From an uncultured Bacilli bacterium (GTDB lineage: Bacteria > Bacillota_I > Bacilli_A > RF39 > UBA660): DNA of 64,000 bases. Positions 50,759 to 56,292 of this stretch are shown here, one piece after another (the stretch's first letter is position 1; the number at the start of each line of letters is the position of its first letter). The stretch lies in NCBI GenBank assembly GCA_934130165.1, contig CAKOXO010000002.1, positions 192,412-256,411 on the forward strand. Direction: 5' to 3'. Below the pieces are notes generated by a model. The model was not told the origin of the DNA. It made no database searches and saw only the letters and a program-made list of their open reading frames with translations. Made by a program: the position numbers and the translations under genes.

Positions 50759-52498
50759 ATGAACGAAGAAAAAAAGAACGTTATTGCCGGACTATATCCT
50801 CGTGTTTCGACCGATGGTCAAGTCCGTGAAGGATTTAGTTTAGATGAGCAAGAAAAAGAAATGAAAAAATTATGTATGTATAAGAACTATCAAATTTATA
50901 AGGTGTATCGTGAAGAAGGAGTTTCAGCAAAAAATATGAATCGTCCTAAATTTCAAGAAATGATTCAGGATTTAAAAGATGGAAAGATTAATAGAATTAT
51001 TGTTTATAAATTAGATAGACTTACAAGATCAATTCAAGACTTAGAGGTTATTTGTAAACTTATTGAAAAATATCATTGTAGCCTAGATAGTGTTAGTGAA
51101 GAAATTAACACAGATACTGCTACGGGTGTATTCTTTATAAGAATGACTACTATACTTGCTCAACTTGAAATTGAAAGAACTTCAGAAAGAACTAAATTTG
51201 GATTGAAAGGCGCTGCAAAAAATGGACACTTTTGTGGTAAAGCCCCTATTGGTTATAGAAAAATCAATAAGGAATTAGTCATTGATGATTTAGAAAGTGA
51301 GGTGGTAAAAGAAATATTTGATGACTATGTTAATGGATTATCAGTTTGTACTATTACTAAAAAATTAAATAATAAAAATGCACTTAATAGAAATTGGAGA
51401 ACTACTACTATTGATAGAATGCTATCCAATTATATTTATTGTGGGGATTATTTATACGGAAAAAGAGCAAAAAATATGAAACCAATTCATTTAGAAGATA
51501 TATGCCCTGCTATCATTGATAAAGAAACTTTTAAAATGGTACAAACACAAAAAGAAAGAAATTTAAAGAACTATACTAGAAAGCACACTTATGTTTATAT
51601 GCAGAAAATAGTTTGTTCTAAGTGTAACAAAATCATGGGTGGATCTTCTACTACTTCAAAGAATAAACCTACTCAGATTTATTATAAATGTAATTGTTGT
51701 AATACTAGAATTAATGAAAAGAAAATTGAAAAACCTTTAATGTTATTTTTAAATGATATGTTAGATTATTATCTACTTATTGATAATAACTTTAAATCCT
51801 TTTTTAATGAAGATTTAAGCATTGAAATAAACAAATATAATAAAATGCTAGATAAATGCAATAAGAAACTAAAAAAGATAAAAGAAGCCTATTTAGATGA
51901 CTTAATAGATAAAGATGAATTTATAACAGAAGAAAAAACTATAAAATCACAAATAAATGATTTAGAATTCAAACTTAATCAACTAAATAATGCTAACAAT
52001 AATGAAAATCACAAACAAGAATTAAATCTATATTATAATTTATTTCAATTAGAGAAAATGAAATATAAATCTTATTATGCTAGAAAGAATGGATTATGGA
52101 ATAAACTTACTAAGGAACAAAAATCAAAACTAATTATGAAATATATAGACTCTATTGAAATAGAAAAAGTTAAAGATGAAATAGTTATTAAAAAGATAAA
52201 TATTAATAAAAAAGAAATTATGAATATTGGTTATATGTTTAGAAATGATTGTTTTGATATGGCAATTAATATTAATGATAGAGATATTATTTTATCTAAT
52301 GAAAAGACTAAAAAAGATATAGATAAATATATTAATTCCTTAAGTAAGTTTTATAAAATCTCACCTATTACGATAGAAAAAGATAAATTAAATCTTGATG
52401 AACTAGATAATAATAACAATCTATTACAGATAATTCCTAATAAAAAGAATCATAAATTTGATAAAGATAAATACACTTTATTGCTAATAAATGGCTAA
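50759..52498 (+). CDS. Large serine recombinase (resolvase/invertase catalytic domain, recombinase domain, zinc ribbon, coiled-coil)
   Basis: 579 aa. N-terminal YPRVSTDGQ with the catalytic Ser. Conserved RLTR ([10 protein letters not shown]). Cys-rich zinc-ribbon CSKCNK...YYKCNCCN. Lys/Glu coiled-coil tail. Confidence 0.85.
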
Positions 52499-52501
52499 AT
52501 T

Positions 52502-53461
52502 ATGATAAAATTATATCGAGGTGTATTTATGTTAAACAATATAACAACAAGTTGTGAATATGTATCATCTAATTCAAGACATGTATCTATTAATTTAAAA
52601 AAATTAAATAGTTTAGTTGAGAGTATAAATGATATAAAAATGGAACACTGGTTATCATCTTCTCCATTTGGACTATTAGATTTACCAGTTGAAACAATTA
52701 TAAATTTTTTATTAGTATATGAATCAATTGACTTCTCATTTTGGGGAAATCCTAAATGGTCTATTGATACAGAATACGGAAATTTAGATGGTTCTATAGC
52801 ATTATTATATGCAATACTAAAATATGTAAAAGAAAATAAAACTACTGATTTTTCTACTATAGAAAAAGATGAATTTGAAAGAGTTTTAAAAGGAAATATT
52901 CAAATACCTTTATTTGAAGAAAGGTTCAGAATAATAAAAGAAGTAAGTCAAATAGTTAATGAAAAAATGAATGGTAATTTTTATAAATATATTCAAAAAA
53001 TAAATTCAGATTATGAATTATTTGAGTTGATTGTAAATAATTTTCCAAATTTTAAAGATGAAAGAATATACAATGGACAAACTATATATATTTATAAATT
53101 AGCACAATTATTAACATCTGATATTCTTCATATAAGAAAAATGAAAGAAAATATAGATGTAGATTATAGTCACTTAATTGGATGTGCTGATTATAAAATA
53201 CCTCAAATTTTAAGAGCAATGGGAATACTAGTTTTTGATGACGAATTATCAAAACTTGTAGATAGCCAAACTGAATTACCTATAAGTTCAGAATATGAGG
53301 TTGAAATAAGAGCAAATATGTTAACAGTTATAAATATTATTAACAAACAATTAGACGGCAAATTTGATCGTATAGATATAAATGATTACTTGTTTATGAA
53401 GAAAAAAGATAAAACACTTGCATTAAAACCATATCATTTAACTAGATGTACTAATTATTAA
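52502..53461 (+). CDS. Qng1/DUF2419-family queuosine salvage protein homolog (queuosine 5'-phosphate N-glycosylase/hydrolase-like)
   Basis: 319 aa. Multiple colinear matches to the eukaryotic C9orf64/QNG1 family: ANSRxV, FSFWG...KW, PLFEERFRIIKE, NFPNFKDERIYNGQTIYIYKLAQLL, ADYKIPQILRAMGIL, EVEIRANML. The likely true start is the internal Met at 52529. Confidence 0.6.
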   Translation: MIKLYRGVFMLNNITTSCEYVSSNSRHVSINLKKLNSLVESINDIKMEHWLSSSPFGLLDLPVETIINFLLVYESIDFSFWGNPKWSIDTEYGNLDGSIALLYAILKYVKENKTTDFSTIEKDEFERVLKGNIQIPLFEERFRIIKEVSQIVNEKMNGNFYKYIQKINSDYELFELIVNNFPNFKDERIYNGQTIYIYKLAQLLTSDILHIRKMKENIDVDYSHLIGCADYKIPQILRAMGILVFDDELSKLVDSQTELPISSEYEVEIRANMLTVINIINKQLDGKFDRIDINDYLFMKKKDKTLALKPYHLTRCTNY

Positions 53462-53519
53462 TGAAAATGGAACACAGAAATGAACTAGTCAAGAAAAAGT
53501 AGACAGTTTAAAAAGACAC

Positions 53520-54739: not shown

Positions 54740-54862
54740 AAAAAATCCTCCTTTTTTATTTATGATAACAAAAAATGTAGACTGTGTCTTTTTTAGACTG
54801 TCTACATTTATTTTATCACTTCAAAATGTGTTCTTTTTTTATGTCTTGGTGGTGGAAAGGAG

Positions 54863-55054
54863 ATGACAATTATTAACTACTTTTTTGAAATAGTAGTACC
54901 ACAAATTCTTGAATATTTTAAGGAAAATAAAGAAGAAATCCCTAATTATCTTATGCTAGAAGTTTTAAAAAAAGATAAACAATATCAAGAGCAAATTGAA
55001 AAAATTTTAGAATTATCTAAAGAAGAAAATAAAAATAATCAGAAAGGAGAATAA
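54863..55054 (+). CDS. Small acidic protein upstream of mob (hypothetical)
   Basis: 63 aa. Followed 2 nt later by the relaxase gene with its own RBS aaaggagaa. Confidence 0.3.
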   Translation: MTIINYFFEIVVPQILEYFKENKEEIPNYLMLEVLKKDKQYQEQIEKILELSKEENKNNQKGE

Positions 55055-55056
55055 AA

Positions 55057-56292
55057 ATGAGTTATACAATTTTTAGAGGTGAAGGAATTAAAACAATACA
55101 TGAATTATCACAAAGAGGCAGTCATAATGAAAGAACAAAAGATAAATACAAATCTAACCCTAATATTAGGATTGAAGATAGTAAAAATAATATTGAAATA
55201 ATAAAATGTAATAATTATGCAGAGAAATTTTATGAAATAACAAGTGAATATCAAAAAGAACATTCTGAAAGAATGAAGAACATGAGAGCTGATAGAAAAA
55301 AGTCTTTTTATAATATGGTAAATGATTCTAAAAGTGTTGTTGCTGATGAAATGATATTCACAAGTGATAAAGATTTCTTTAAAAATTTGAGTAAAGAAGA
55401 ACTTATGAGGTGGGCAAATGAAACTATGAATTTTGTTTATGAAGATTTAGGTTATACAAAAGAACAAGTCTTACATGCTGTTATTCATATGGATGAAAAA
55501 GTACCCCATTTACATTGTATTGTTATACCACTTGTTCGAAAATTTGATAAACGAACTGGTACAACAAAATACACTATTTCCAAACGATCATACATTAAAT
55601 CTGATATTCATTTAACTGAATTACAAGATAAATATCACGAACGTTTAACTAAGAAAGGATTCAAATTAGAACGAGGAGAAAAACACACAGGAGTTAAACA
55701 TTTATCAATGGGACAATTTAAAAATGTTGCTAGATATTATGATAGACAAGCATTTAGAAGTAAGAAAAAAATAGAAGAACAATATTGGAAAATAAAAGGT
55801 TCATTACAAAATTCTAAAAAGAAAGCATTGACTGATAAAGTAATTATTGATGGAGAAATTTATCATATTCTATTAAATTTTCTAGATATGTATAGTGAAG
55901 AAATTCAAAATATGGTAACAAGTAAAGCATTTGTTGAAAGTTTAAATGAATTCACTTGTGATTATAAAACATTAGAAAGAAAATATAAAAATAGTCTTAT
56001 TGATATTAATTTTTTAGAAGATGAGAATGGCAAATTATACGAAGATAAAGCTAATTTACTAAATTTTGTTAATCATTTGTTGTTAATTTTAAAAGAATTT
56101 TTTAGGGAAATTTTATTATCTAATGATAAAAAGAAGAAAGAAAAGACGATAGATATTTTAAAAGAATGTTATGATAATGACTTATACAATTCTACAGATT
56201 TAAAAGAAATCTCTAAAGATACTGATAGTGAAACAGAAGTAAATATTTTTATAAATAAAGAATCGTTAGAAAAAGACTACGATATTTTTTAA
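55057..56292 (+). CDS. mob: MobV-family relaxase (Pre/Mob plasmid recombination enzyme)
   Basis: 411 aa. Motif HAVIHMDEKVPHLHCIVIPL is the MobV HxDE...PHxH signature. N-terminal relaxase fold. C-terminal coiled-coil. Confidence 0.8.
   Translation: MSYTIFRGEGIKTIHELSQRGSHNERTKDKYKSNPNIRIEDSKNNIEIIKCNNYAEKFYEITSEYQKEHSERMKNMRADRKKSFYNMVNDSKSVVADEMIFTSDKDFFKNLSKEELMRWANETMNFVYEDLGYTKEQVLHAVIHMDEKVPHLHCIVIPLVRKFDKRTGTTKYTISKRSYIKSDIHLTELQDKYHERLTKKGFKLERGEKHTGVKHLSMGQFKNVARYYDRQAFRSKKKIEEQYWKIKGSLQNSKKKALTDKVIIDGEIYHILLNFLDMYSEEIQNMVTSKAFVESLNEFTCDYKTLERKYKNSLIDINFLEDENGKLYEDKANLLNFVNHLLLILKEFFREILLSNDKKKKEKTIDILKECYDNDLYNSTDLKEISKDTDSETEVNIFINKESLEKDYDIF

What the first reader, a model, noticed from the sequence alone, without database searches (positions are those of the whole stretch)
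50759..56292. Serine-recombinase plus Mob/Pre relaxase architecture resembles clostridial Tn4451/Tn4453-type mobilizable transposons but with different cargo
Tn4451/Tn4453 encode the large serine recombinase TnpX and the Mob/Pre-family relaxase TnpZ. They excise as circles joined at a GA dinucleotide, and they prefer targets resembling their own joint. This element has the same two key functions, and a GA lies at the centre of its terminal repeat. It lacks catP and instead carries Qng1 and an unknown operon. The recombinase (579 aa) is shorter than TnpX.
Basis: partly seen in the sequence, partly recalled or inferred. Interest (0 to 1): 0.55.

Follow-up and report, generated by a model that had tools for sequence, protein, structure and literature searches.

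The report
tRNA-Gly-targeting mobilizable island, not Tn4451
The recombinase and relaxase genes belong to a 10-kb mobilizable island inserted at the very end of a glycine tRNA gene in an uncultured gut bacterium; it works like the clostridial transposon Tn4451 in outline but is a different, strictly site-specific and apparently undescribed family that stacks into tandem arrays.

Summary
The genes are real: a 579-aa large serine recombinase (LSR), a Qng1/queuosine-salvage gene, a 63-aa ORF and a 411-aa MobV relaxase.

The interval 50759-56292 is only the core of the element. Comparison with more than 40 related loci puts the ends at 50120 and 60113. Both ends are the 6-bp core GCTCCA, the last six bases of tRNA-Gly (acceptor GC, discriminator T, CCA).

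In the window the repeat reads as 12 bp (GCTCCATTGAGG). The extra bases exist only because a decayed second element lies next door.

The element sits beside tRNA-Gly(TCC) or tRNA-Gly(GCC) genes in at least 12 loci, or beside the end of another family member in a tandem array.

The LSR is 24% identical to a TnpX-type recombinase, lacks DUF4368, and has no tnpV next to it. It is therefore an integrative mobilizable element like Tn4451 in function, but not a family member.

An IS3-family element has landed in a conserved hairpin just upstream of the mob operon in this copy.

Hosts are uncultured human-gut Bacilli/'Tenericutes' MAGs. I rate it a new variant of a known kind, of moderate interest.

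The parts
50052..50125 (+). tRNA-Gly(TCC) gene. Its 3' part is the chromosomal (B) arm of the attachment site. The gene stays intact.
   Evidence: ARAGORN; Rfam tRNA 69.3 bits. Homologous left junctions abut tRNA-Gly TCC or GCC in 11 other loci.
50120..50125 (+). attL core GCTCCA (acceptor-stem GC, discriminator T, CCA). The 2-bp crossover must lie inside it.
   Evidence: It is the only block common to all left and right junctions across more than 40 loci.
50126..50175 (+). Left end of the element (P' arm, TTGAGGTTAAT...). It includes the hairpin 50137-50165 plus a T-run, which replaces the tRNA's own terminator.
   Evidence: Sequence. Conserved start point of the element.
50233..50541 (+). 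Conserved 99-102 aa protein, the first gene of every family member. Function unknown; candidate recombination accessory or directionality factor.
50610..50717 (+). Promoter-like site (TTGACT-17-TATTAT, with TG) followed by a terminator-like hairpin at 50693-50717, in the leader of the recombinase gene.
   Evidence: Consensus scan only.
50759..52498 (+). Large serine recombinase, 579 aa. Ser17 lies in RVST; Cys motifs CSKC (286) and CNCC (311).
   Evidence: Copies 94-100% identical occur in hundreds of gut metagenome contigs and in 5 GTDB species.
52529..53461 (+). Cargo slot 1: Qng1/queuosine-salvage gene. The first-ATG ORF starts at 52502.
   Evidence: Pfam Q_salvage 2.5e-44. Backbone homology to other copies stops at 52531. 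Other copies carry different genes here.
53470..53480 (+). Left half of the conserved hairpin GAACACA-GAAA-TGTGTTC, split by the IS. Candidate oriT or terminator of slot 1.
   Evidence: Intact in all other copies, directly upstream of orf63-mob. DNA fold z = -3.0.
53481..54823 (-). IS3-family insertion sequence. OrfA 54377-54739, OrfB 53520-54329, terminal inverted repeats TGAAC...GTTCA, 3-bp target duplication AAA. Not part of the element's backbone.
   Evidence: Pfam HTH_28/HTH_Tnp_1 and rve. Inverted repeat I2. Sequence. Absent from all other copies. Single copy in the window.
54824..54862 (+). Second AAA copy, right half of the hairpin (54827-54833), T-run and ribosome-binding site of orf63.
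54863..55054 (+). 63-aa ORF conserved upstream of mob. Possible relaxosome accessory protein.
   Evidence: 87-100% identical in other copies. No family hit.
55057..56292 (+). MOBV relaxase, 411 aa. HNER at residue 23; HMDEKVPHLH at residue 144.
   Evidence: Pfam Mob_Pre 8e-29. NCBIfam MobV 108.3 bits against a cut-off of 100. Motifs. Best plasmid relative is 44% identical, in Clostridium baratii.
56336..56372 (.). Conserved 37-nt hairpin at the end of the backbone, downstream of mob. Bidirectional terminator or alternative oriT candidate.
   Evidence: Retained in copies whatever their slot-2 cargo. DNA fold -11.8 kcal/mol, z = -4.6. 14 pairs, 3 with compensatory changes among 8 variants.
56383..59938 (-). 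Cargo slot 2, transcribed towards mob: HD (261 aa), GNAT (174), Sel1-repeat (208), and 168-, 250- and 69-aa unknowns.
   Evidence: Pfam. In all 10 places shown the HD block lies next to mob or a mob remnant. Many copies with the same LSR, Mob and right end lack it. No defence-system match.
60030..60107 (+). Right end (P arm). It contains the palindrome TTGATAAAAGGTTTAAAACCTTCTTATCAA and TCAACT next to the core. TCAACTGCTCCA matches the tRNA's TCATCCGCTCCA at 10 of 12 positions.
   Evidence: sequence comparison.
60108..60113 (+). attR core GCTCCA.
   Evidence: In strains L043/L044/L049 another element's right end is joined at exactly this hexamer.
60114..60660 (+). Remnant of a second, older family member. 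Its left end (60114-60190) is fused by deletion to the 3' part of a mob gene (60191-60412), followed by a YhcG_C nuclease fragment (60421-60648).
   Evidence: blastn to the 461-aa Mob_Pre gene of L005. A longer mob ORF (188 aa, cut at the locus end) extends left of this point in L045. Pfam YhcG_C 4e-18.

Best explanation
The finding is the integration and mobilization core of a roughly 10-kb integrative mobilizable element (IME). With the IS3-family insertion it spans 50120-60113. It is inserted at the extreme 3' end of a tRNA-Gly(TCC) gene in an uncultured human-gut Bacilli/'Tenericutes' genome.

Inferred mechanism:
1. The 579-aa large serine recombinase (nucleophile Ser17) synapses the joined element ends (attP: right-end arm, GCTCCA, left-end arm) with the tRNA-Gly 3' end (attB).
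2. It exchanges strands at a 2-bp crossover inside the shared hexamer GCTCCA.
3. Because the element brings its own GCTCCA and a terminator hairpin, the tRNA gene stays intact.
4. Newcomers of the same superfamily integrate at the same tRNA end, or at the GCTCCA of a resident element. This builds tandem arrays in which older members decay, as the remnant at 60114-60660 has.
5. After excision as a circle, the MOBV relaxase (HxDE...PHxH) would nick an oriT and the strand would be transferred through a helper element's conjugation pore.

The best oriT candidates are the conserved hairpin just upstream of orf63-mob and the conserved hairpin just downstream of mob.

Two slots carry exchangeable cargo. 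Here slot 1 is Qng1, between the LSR and mob. Slot 2 is the HD-GNAT-Sel1 operon, between mob and the right end.

The conserved 99-102 aa first gene is the most likely accessory or directionality factor.

In this copy an IS3-family element has split the upstream hairpin. That probably impairs mob expression or oriT function.

Shown: gene identities, element ends, target, arrays, polymorphism between strains and species. Inferred: crossover position, excision, transfer, oriT, and the role of the small protein.
For: Gene identities.

Ends and the 6-bp core:
- blastn breakpoints.
- Junction alignments.
- Survey of all GCTCCA junctions in fetched loci.
- 21 further right ends from a metagenome scan.
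- The flanks after the core differ from the first base onward (TTT.., TAA.., GAT.., TTA.., GTG..). The flanks before it differ from the base preceding G.

Target: ARAGORN finds tRNA-Gly TCC or GCC abutting the left end in 11 loci plus the window.

Occupancy polymorphism at the same chromosomal site:
- A different element sits next to the identical tRNA in L013.
- A different element's right end is joined at 60108 in L043/L044/L049.

Spread: the LSR is 94-96% identical in 5 species-level MAGs and occurs in hundreds of contigs.

Superfamily: three LSR clades at 26-37% identity are each preceded by a homologous small protein. They are paired with MOBV relaxases or, once, with a PF03432 relaxase.

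Cargo slots.

No T4SS genes and no phage genes. No relative in IMG/VR.

Dyad symmetry TCAAnnG-CT-CnnTTGA in the reconstructed attP favours CT as the centre (10 of 24 positions).
Against: - No empty attB and no circular attP junction was recovered. Every tRNA-Gly seen was occupied, and sampling was biased towards occupied sites. Excision is therefore not shown.
- P-core-P' junctions in tandem arrays cannot be told apart from circle junctions.
- The crossover dinucleotide is not resolved. CT, TC (GA on the other strand), CC and CA all remain possible, and the symmetry signal is weak.
- oriT is not identified. The upstream hairpin with its T-run also looks like an ordinary terminator. There is no similarity to the oriT-like region of sister elements or of the closest plasmid.
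- No helper conjugative element is known for these hosts.
- Most loci are metagenome assemblies, where repeats can be mis-joined. The same junctions do recur in independent samples.
Confidence: 0.8

Rival explanations
1. It is a member of the Tn4451/Tn4453 family: a TnpX-type recombinase and a TnpZ relaxase, a GA crossover, and low-specificity transposition into joint-like targets, with only the cargo swapped.
For: The two functional classes are the same, LSR plus MOBV relaxase. The bottom strand of the core (TGGAGC) contains a GA, so a GA crossover is not excluded. The right arm resembles the target arm, 10 of 12 positions next to and including the core (sequence).
Against: - 24% identity to a TnpX-type LSR, and no DUF4368 domain.
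- TnpX catalytic domain 32 bits against 74.5 bits for TP901-1 integrase.
- No tnpV.
- Gene order and content differ.
- Strict tRNA-Gly 3'-end targeting in at least 12 loci.
Confidence: 0.04
2. The element ends where the reader drew it, just after mob at about 56292. On this reading the HD-GNAT-Sel1 operon is ordinary chromosome next to a preferred insertion site.
For: The operon is transcribed in the opposite direction. Backbone conservation among copies ends about 90 bp after mob.
Against: - In all 10 places shown (of 22 contigs read) the HD block sits next to mob or a mob remnant, while the DNA beyond both ends differs.
- The right junction with GCTCCA lies at 60108. It is shared by copies with and without the HD block.
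- Strains with another element at this site diverge from the window exactly at 60108.
Confidence: 0.03
3. It is a prophage or phage-satellite remnant whose integrase happens to sit near a plasmid-derived mob gene.
For: The LSR matches PHROG 95 'integrase' at 1.5e-110. Its catalytic domain is closest to TP901-1 integrase among solved structures.
Against: - No other PHROG hit reached the E-value limit among the 7 element proteins scanned (LSR, Mob, small protein, orf63 and the 168-, 250- and 69-aa ORFs); the 250-aa ORF matched an unknown-function PHROG only at E = 0.0088. No phage-type Pfam family appears in the element's ORFs.
- No relative in IMG/VR.
- The best phage integrase is 30% identical, no closer than plasmid LSRs at 31-34%.
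- The relaxase is part of the conserved backbone in all copies.
Confidence: 0.03
4. This particular copy is a dead end. It is integration-competent in principle but no longer mobilizable, because the IS3-family insertion split the hairpin or leader upstream of orf63-mob.
For: The IS lies in the loop of a hairpin that is intact in every other copy, 29 nt before the orf63 start (54834-54862). The hairpin geometry (7-bp stem, 4-nt loop, GpT about 10 nt downstream) resembles the minimal pMV158 oriT, IR1 plus 8 nt (PMC5863519). Only the window's lineage carries the IS.
Against: The hairpin may be only a terminator. The LSR and Mob ORFs are intact. oriT could be the downstream hairpin at 56336-56372. 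IS ends often carry outward-reading promoters.
Confidence: 0.35

Closest known systems
Tn4451/Tn4453 (Clostridium perfringens / Clostridioides difficile mobilizable transposons; TnpX and TnpZ)
   Same: An IME built from one large serine recombinase and one MOBV relaxase. It has no conjugation pore of its own. Recombination uses a very short shared sequence, and the element's arm resembles the target.
   Different: - The LSR belongs to another subfamily: 24% identity and no DUF4368 domain.
- No tnpV and no cat gene; tnpY and tnpW could not be tested.
- Strict targeting of the tRNA-Gly 3' end, in place of low-specificity GA-centred sites.
- Tandem arrays.
- A conserved small first gene.
- Hosts are uncultured gut Bacilli.
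Dehalococcoides ssrA genomic islands (CcrB-like serine recombinase DsiB; PMC3146451)
   Same: Serine-recombinase islands that integrate at the 3' end of a small stable-RNA gene without destroying it. They leave short direct repeats and accumulate as tandem arrays with decayed members and exchangeable cargo.
   Different: - Their target is tmRNA with a 20-bp repeat; here it is tRNA-Gly with a 6-bp core.
- They have two recombinases (DsiA and DsiB) and no relaxase; here there is one LSR plus a MOBV relaxase.
- The window LSR scores 138 bits against a CcrB equivalog cut-off of 900.
Mycobacterial AICEs in tRNA-Leu and phage phiRSM in tRNA-Ser (serine recombinases targeting tRNA genes; PMC3218068)
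   Same: They are the rare documented cases of serine-recombinase integration into tRNA genes.
   Different: The element types are different (actinomycete conjugative elements, a filamentous phage with a small resolvase-like enzyme). The tRNAs and the phyla are also different.
Streptococcal serine-recombinase IMEs (for example those in rumA; PMC5704250, PMC5357655)
   Same: Firmicute IMEs with a single serine integrase, often MOBV relaxases, high site specificity and very short flanking repeats.
   Different: The streptococcal elements are reported to insert within, and disrupt, dispensable protein genes. This family uses the tRNA 3' end, the niche typical of tyrosine integrases, and keeps the gene intact.
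pMV158-type MOBV1 mobilization module (MobM and oriT)
   Same: The relaxase family and catalytic motifs match. There is a hairpin with a 7-bp stem and 4-nt loop immediately upstream of the mob operon.
   Different: No sequence similarity to oriT of pMV158. A 63-aa ORF precedes mob. A nick site has not been identified.

Membership tests
Tn4451/Tn4453 family | TnpX-type large resolvase (about 707 aa; Resolvase, Recombinase, Zn ribbon and DUF4368 domains) | tested here: not met
   579 aa, with Pfam Resolvase and Recombinase only. It is 24% identical over 356 aa to a 709-aa TnpX-type LSR that carries DUF4368 and Zn_ribbon_recom. TnpX catalytic domain (PDB 2mhc): 32.4 bits and 29% identity, against 74.5 bits and 38% for TP901-1 integrase.
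Tn4451/Tn4453 family | Accessory genes tnpV, tnpY and tnpW | tested here: not met
   No PF14198 (TnpV) hit in any ORF of the element. The TnpX-type comparator does have tnpV immediately downstream. tnpY and tnpW have no models here, so they were not tested.
Tn4451/Tn4453 family | Low target specificity | tested here: not met
   All left junctions abut tRNA-Gly (TCC or GCC) or the end of another family member.
Tn4451/Tn4453 family | Crossover at a GA dinucleotide | tested here: inconclusive
The crossover is confined to the shared core GCTCCA. The core's complement, TGGAGC, does contain a GA.
Tn4451/Tn4453 family | TnpZ (Mob/Pre) relaxase with an RSA-type oriT upstream | tested here: inconclusive
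   The relaxase is MOBV. No TnpZ or RSA sequence was available for comparison. The upstream region holds only a hairpin with a T-run, split by an IS.
Integrative mobilizable element (IME, sensu Guedon et al. 2017, PMC5704250) | Encodes its own integrase and its own relaxase, but no conjugation pore | tested here: met
   LSR and MobV are present. No T4SS family matched in any ORF from 50126 to 60107.
Integrative mobilizable element (IME) | Bounded by att sites with a short direct repeat; presence or absence varies at a defined site | tested here: met
   GCTCCA lies at both ends. Different elements occupy the same tRNA site in other strains. A truly empty site was not recovered.
Integrative mobilizable element (IME) | Excision as a circle and mobilization by a helper element | not testable with these tools
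   This needs PCR or read-level detection of attP and attB, and mating assays.
Large serine recombinases (integrase type) | N-terminal catalytic domain with a Ser nucleophile, recombinase domain, zinc ribbon with an embedded coiled coil | tested here: met
   Resolvase 1.2e-35 and Recombinase 3.4e-18. Ser17 in RVST; CSKC(286)...CNCC(311). PHROG 95 at 1.5e-110 over residues 3-494. Pfam Zn_ribbon_recom is itself below threshold, and the coiled coil is inferred from sequence only.
MOBV relaxases | Family HMM above the curated cut-off, with HxxR and HxDE...PHxH motifs | tested here: met
   NCBIfam MobV 108.3 bits, at or above the cut-off of 100. HNER at residue 23 and HMDEKVPHLH at residue 144.
SCC / CcrB-type cassette recombinases (including the Dehalococcoides DsiB type) | CcrB equivalog score; paired small CcrA/DsiA recombinase | tested here: not met
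   CcrB 138 bits against a cut-off of 900. There is no second recombinase gene in the element.

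The most novel reading that the evidence does not exclude
This would be an undescribed superfamily of serine-recombinase IMEs. At least three LSR clades, only 26-37% identical, are each preceded by a homologous protein of about 95 aa; the modelled member shows no recognisable fold relative. All recombine at the same 6-bp GCTCCA at the CCA end of tRNA-Gly genes and regenerate the tRNA. They stack into tandem arrays that serve as the main accessory-gene platform of uncultured, small-genome gut Bacilli. Cargo seen includes restriction-modification systems, a reverse transcriptase, STAND NTPases and Qng1. 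On this reading the small protein is a new recombination directionality or targeting factor.
Probability: 0.3. Interest if true: 0.6.

Novelty: new variant of a known kind. Interest (0 to 1): 0.45.

Why it matters
- Serine integrases are said to target tRNA genes only rarely (PMC3218068), and Firmicute serine-recombinase IMEs are reported to disrupt protein genes (PMC5704250). Here a diversified LSR family occupies the niche typical of tyrosine integrases. Its identity block is unusually short (6 bp) and precisely defined, and its target is conserved.
- That gives a natural panel of related LSRs with matched attP and attB sites. Such a panel would help in studying how LSRs read half-sites, and LSRs are used as genome-engineering tools.
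- It also points to a major route of gene flow in abundant but uncultured gut Bacilli. The cargo seen includes defence genes and a queuosine-salvage gene.
- For the scan itself, the result corrects the element's boundaries and removes an incorrect family assignment.

Tried and rejected
1. Full-length TnpX. A homology search seeded with the TnpX catalytic-domain residues shown in a PDB alignment returned only 100-150 aa fragments. Two of them lay in large conjugative-element contexts, not in Tn4451. I therefore used a 709-aa TnpX-type LSR followed by tnpV, from a Subdoligranulum plasmid record, as a proxy. A true TnpX/TndX phylogeny was not made.
2. oriT by similarity. I compared the GC-rich inverted-repeat region upstream of mob in sister elements, and the region upstream of the closest plasmid mobV (C. 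baratii), with the element. Only chance-level short matches were found.
3. Empty attB. No unoccupied tRNA-Gly was found in any fetched locus.
4. Circular attP. It cannot be told apart from tandem junctions in assemblies.
6. Defence role for the HD-GNAT-Sel1 operon. PADLOC gave only sub-significant Cas3-HD and PtuA fragments.
7. My early reading that the HD block is backbone was rejected. It came from sampling by the HD protein, and copies fetched through the right-end motif often lack it.
8. Promoter scan: the number of sites is not above chance in this AT-rich DNA.
9. Rfam: nothing but the tRNA.

Full report
**What is in the interval.** The window is about 25% G+C. Between 50759 and 56292 lie, on the + strand:
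- a 579-aa protein with Pfam Resolvase (1.2e-35) and Recombinase (3.4e-18) domains;
- a Q_salvage/Qng1 protein (2.5e-44);
- a 63-aa ORF;
- a 411-aa Mob_Pre protein (8e-29).

The relaxase passes the NCBIfam MobV equivalog cut-off (108.3 bits against 100). It has the HxxR and HxDE...PHxH motifs. The recombinase has Ser17 in RVST and two Cys pairs, CSKC and CNCC. It matches the phage/LSR integrase family PHROG 95 at 1.5e-110.

Between Qng1 and the 63-aa ORF, on the - strand, is an IS3-family insertion sequence at 53481-54823. It has an OrfA with HTH domains, an OrfB with rve domains, 34-nt imperfect terminal inverted repeats (TGAAC...GTTCA) and a 3-bp AAA target duplication.

**Where the element really ends.** A tRNA-Gly(TCC) gene lies at 50052-50125. 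I fetched contigs encoding the exact HD protein found downstream of mob (56383-57168), and contigs encoding the recombinase and flanking proteins. I also fetched genome and metagenome loci.

- blastn shows that homology to other copies starts at window 50049-50051 or 50119-50120.
- It stops at 52531, just after the recombinase, and resumes at 54824, just after the IS.
- It then runs through mob and the minus-strand operon (HD, GNAT, Sel1, three unknowns) to 60115-60194.

Junction alignments give the same picture everywhere. The left end is ...GCTCCA|TTGAG..., preceded by a tRNA-Gly gene or by the right end of a different element. The right end is ...AACCTTC(C/T)TATCAA(A/C)T|GCTCCA|..., followed by unrelated DNA or by the left end of another element.

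The only block shared by all junctions is the hexamer GCTCCA. This is the last two acceptor-stem bases, the discriminator T and the encoded CCA of tRNA-Gly.
- After the hexamer the flanks begin TTT, TAA, TTG, GAT, TTA or GTG.
- Before it the preceding base is C, T or G.

So the 2-bp crossover expected for a serine recombinase must lie inside GCTCCA. In this window the repeat looks longer: GCTCCATTGAGG occurs at 50120-50131 and 60108-60119, twice against 0.01 expected. That is only because the DNA to the right is the left end of another, decayed family member that also starts TTGAGG.

**The GA claim.** It occupies positions 9-10 of 12, not the centre. A fair caveat is that the complement of the core, TGGAGC, contains GA. 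A TnpX-like GA crossover (TC on the top strand) is therefore not excluded. A dyad-symmetry scan of the reconstructed attP gives its best score with CT at the centre (TCAAnnG-CT-CnnTTGA, 10 of 24 positions). This is weak evidence.

**Target specificity and arrays.** ARAGORN finds tRNA-Gly(TCC) or tRNA-Gly(GCC), in several sequence variants, abutting the left end in 11 further loci. Where the left neighbour is not a tRNA, it is the right end of a different element.

At the window's own chromosomal site another strain carries a different family member next to the identical tRNA (L013). At the window's right junction, three contigs carry a different element's right end fused at exactly 60108. Two others show the undeleted form of the neighbour.

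The window therefore holds, in order:
- tRNA-Gly;
- an intact element, interrupted only by the IS;
- a GCTCCA;
- a remnant made of a left end (60114-60190) fused to the 3' part of a mob gene (60191-60412) and a YhcG_C fragment.

This is the tandem accretion described for site-specific IMEs (PMC5704250) and for the serine-recombinase ssrA islands of Dehalococcoides (PMC3146451).

**A superfamily, with modules.** Neighbouring elements in the fetched loci encode LSRs of 569-641 aa that are only 26-37% identical to the window's. Each is preceded by a homologous small protein of 91-99 aa, 24-35% identical. They are followed by MOBV relaxases or, in one type, by a PF03432 MobA/VirD2-type relaxase.

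Within the window's own type the backbone consists of:
- the small protein, the LSR, the 63-aa ORF and Mob;
- about 90 bp after mob;
- the right end of about 170 bp.

Two slots vary. Slot 1, after the LSR, holds Qng1 here and in L025, and other small genes elsewhere. Slot 2, between mob and the right end, holds the HD-GNAT-Sel1 operon here and other genes in many copies. My first impression that the HD block is backbone came from sampling by the HD protein, and I withdrew it. Cargo seen in sister elements includes Tsp45I/N6_N4 methylase pairs, an RVT_1 reverse transcriptase, and an nSTAND3/DEAD/methylase set.

**Relation to Tn4451/Tn4453.** The TnpX catalytic domain has a solved structure (PDB 2mhc). 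It matches the window LSR at 32.4 bits (29% identity over 85 residues). That is weaker than TP901-1 integrase (74.5 bits, 38%) and weaker than Gin/Hin-type invertases.

Using the TnpX residues shown in that alignment, I found a 709-aa LSR in a Subdoligranulum plasmid record. It is 94% identical to TnpX over those residues. It carries Resolvase, Recombinase, Zn_ribbon_recom and DUF4368 domains, and it is followed directly by a tnpV gene (PF14198, 8e-42), as in Tn4451.

The window LSR is 24% identical to it over 356 aa. It has no DUF4368, and the element has no tnpV. For scale, plasmid LSRs reach 31-34% identity and phage integrases 30%. So TnpX-type proteins are more distant than generic LSRs.

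Tn4451 is described as having low integration specificity with a 2-bp crossover (PMC5704250). This element is strictly site-specific. It works like Tn4451 in outline, as an IME with an LSR and a MOBV relaxase, but it is not a member of that family.

**Not a prophage.**
- Of the seven element proteins scanned against PHROGs (LSR, Mob, small protein, orf63 and the 168-, 250- and 69-aa ORFs), only the LSR gave a clear match; the 250-aa ORF matched an unknown-function PHROG at E = 0.0088.
- No phage-type Pfam family appears in any ORF of the element or its right flank.
- The left flank is core chromosome: DedA/VTT, GH3, BipA, L28, DnaE, LspA.
- No relative occurs in IMG/VR.

**oriT.** All IS-free copies have the hairpin GAACACA-GAAA-TGTGTTC followed by T7 and ATG/TCTTGG, immediately before the 63-aa ORF. 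Its geometry (7-bp stem, 4-nt loop, a GpT about 10 nt downstream) recalls the minimal pMV158 oriT, IR1 plus 8 nt (PMC5863519). It equally resembles an intrinsic terminator for slot 1 (DNA fold z = -3.0). In the window the IS sits in its loop.

A second, stronger hairpin at 56336-56372 closes the backbone downstream of mob. It folds at -11.8 kcal/mol (z = -4.6) and keeps 14 pairs, with 3 compensatory changes among 8 variants. It could be a bidirectional terminator or the oriT.

Similarity searches against the oriT-like region of sister elements and of the closest plasmid relaxase (C. baratii, 44% identity) found nothing.

**Host and spread.** The LSR occurs at 94-96% identity in five species-level MAGs. 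They are labelled uncultured Tenericutes, Bacillales, Mycoplasma sp. or Bacilli, and come from the human gut. It occurs at 96-100% identity in hundreds of gut metagenome contigs. I did not find this family described in the literature searched. Serine-recombinase integration into tRNA genes is called rare there, with mycobacterial tRNA-Leu elements and phage phiRSM as examples (PMC3218068).

**Verdict.** The element is best filed as a new variant of a known kind, a tRNA-Gly-specific, array-forming LSR/MOBV IME family in uncultured gut Bacilli. Excision, crossover position, oriT, helper element and the small protein's role remain untested.

Noticed in passing
window 53481-54823: An intact IS3-family insertion sequence (OrfA and OrfB on the - strand, inverted repeats TGAAC...GTTCA, 3-bp AAA duplication). 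It is inserted in the 4-nt loop of a hairpin that is conserved in every other copy of the element. It is single-copy in the window. The same lineage's metagenome contig breaks at it.
   Followed up: yes
window 60114-60660: Remnant of a second family member. 77 bp of its left end are fused by deletion to the last third or so of a Mob_Pre gene, followed by a YhcG_C (PDDEXK nuclease) fragment. This remnant (complete, or with more of the mob gene) is present in 7 of the 8 places returned for the flanking HAD protein; the eighth contig (L047) stops short of it. The element to its left varies between strains.
   Followed up: partly
window 50610-50717: A good promoter-like site (TTGACT-17-TATTAT, with TG) is followed by a terminator-like hairpin with a T-run at 50693-50717, about 40 nt before the recombinase start codon. 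This may be an attenuator keeping integrase expression low.
   Followed up: no
window 56336-56372: A 37-nt hairpin downstream of mob is conserved in copies with different downstream cargo, with compensatory base changes (ACGCAC/GTGCGT against ACACAC/GTGTGT). It marks the backbone/cargo boundary.
   Followed up: partly
window 60681-60950 (- strand): An 89-aa ORF made almost entirely of Ser/His/Thr/Gly/Asn repeats (..SHNSS..SHHSDGSS..SHGSNGTTSH..), with no family hit. It lies next to two small membrane-protein ORFs.
   Followed up: no
whole window: The hexamer GCTCCA occurs 18 times on both strands, against 7.45 +/- 2.29 expected from shuffles (0 of 100 shuffles reach 18). Apart from the two att cores, the sites are scattered across the window. 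The cause (codon usage, or selection for secondary sites) was not examined.
   Followed up: no
L001, L003, L005 (sister elements in arrays): Cargo of neighbouring family members is rich in defence-type genes: Tsp45I with N6_N4 methylase, an RVT_1 reverse transcriptase with an 82-aa partner, nSTAND3 with a DEAD helicase and a methylase, and SLFN_AlbA_2.
   Followed up: no
L008 3895-7566: One array member pairs a 569-aa LSR and the conserved small protein with a PF03432 (MobA/VirD2-type) relaxase rather than MOBV. The recombination and mobilization modules therefore assort independently.
   Followed up: partly
L001, L004, L009 (about 10868-12594): Decayed copies of the window-type element keep only the last 200 bp or so of the recombinase gene, an NTP_transf_6 cargo gene, the orf63 region and the 3' third of mob. 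They still sit between tRNA-Gly(GCC) and the HD operon.
   Followed up: partly
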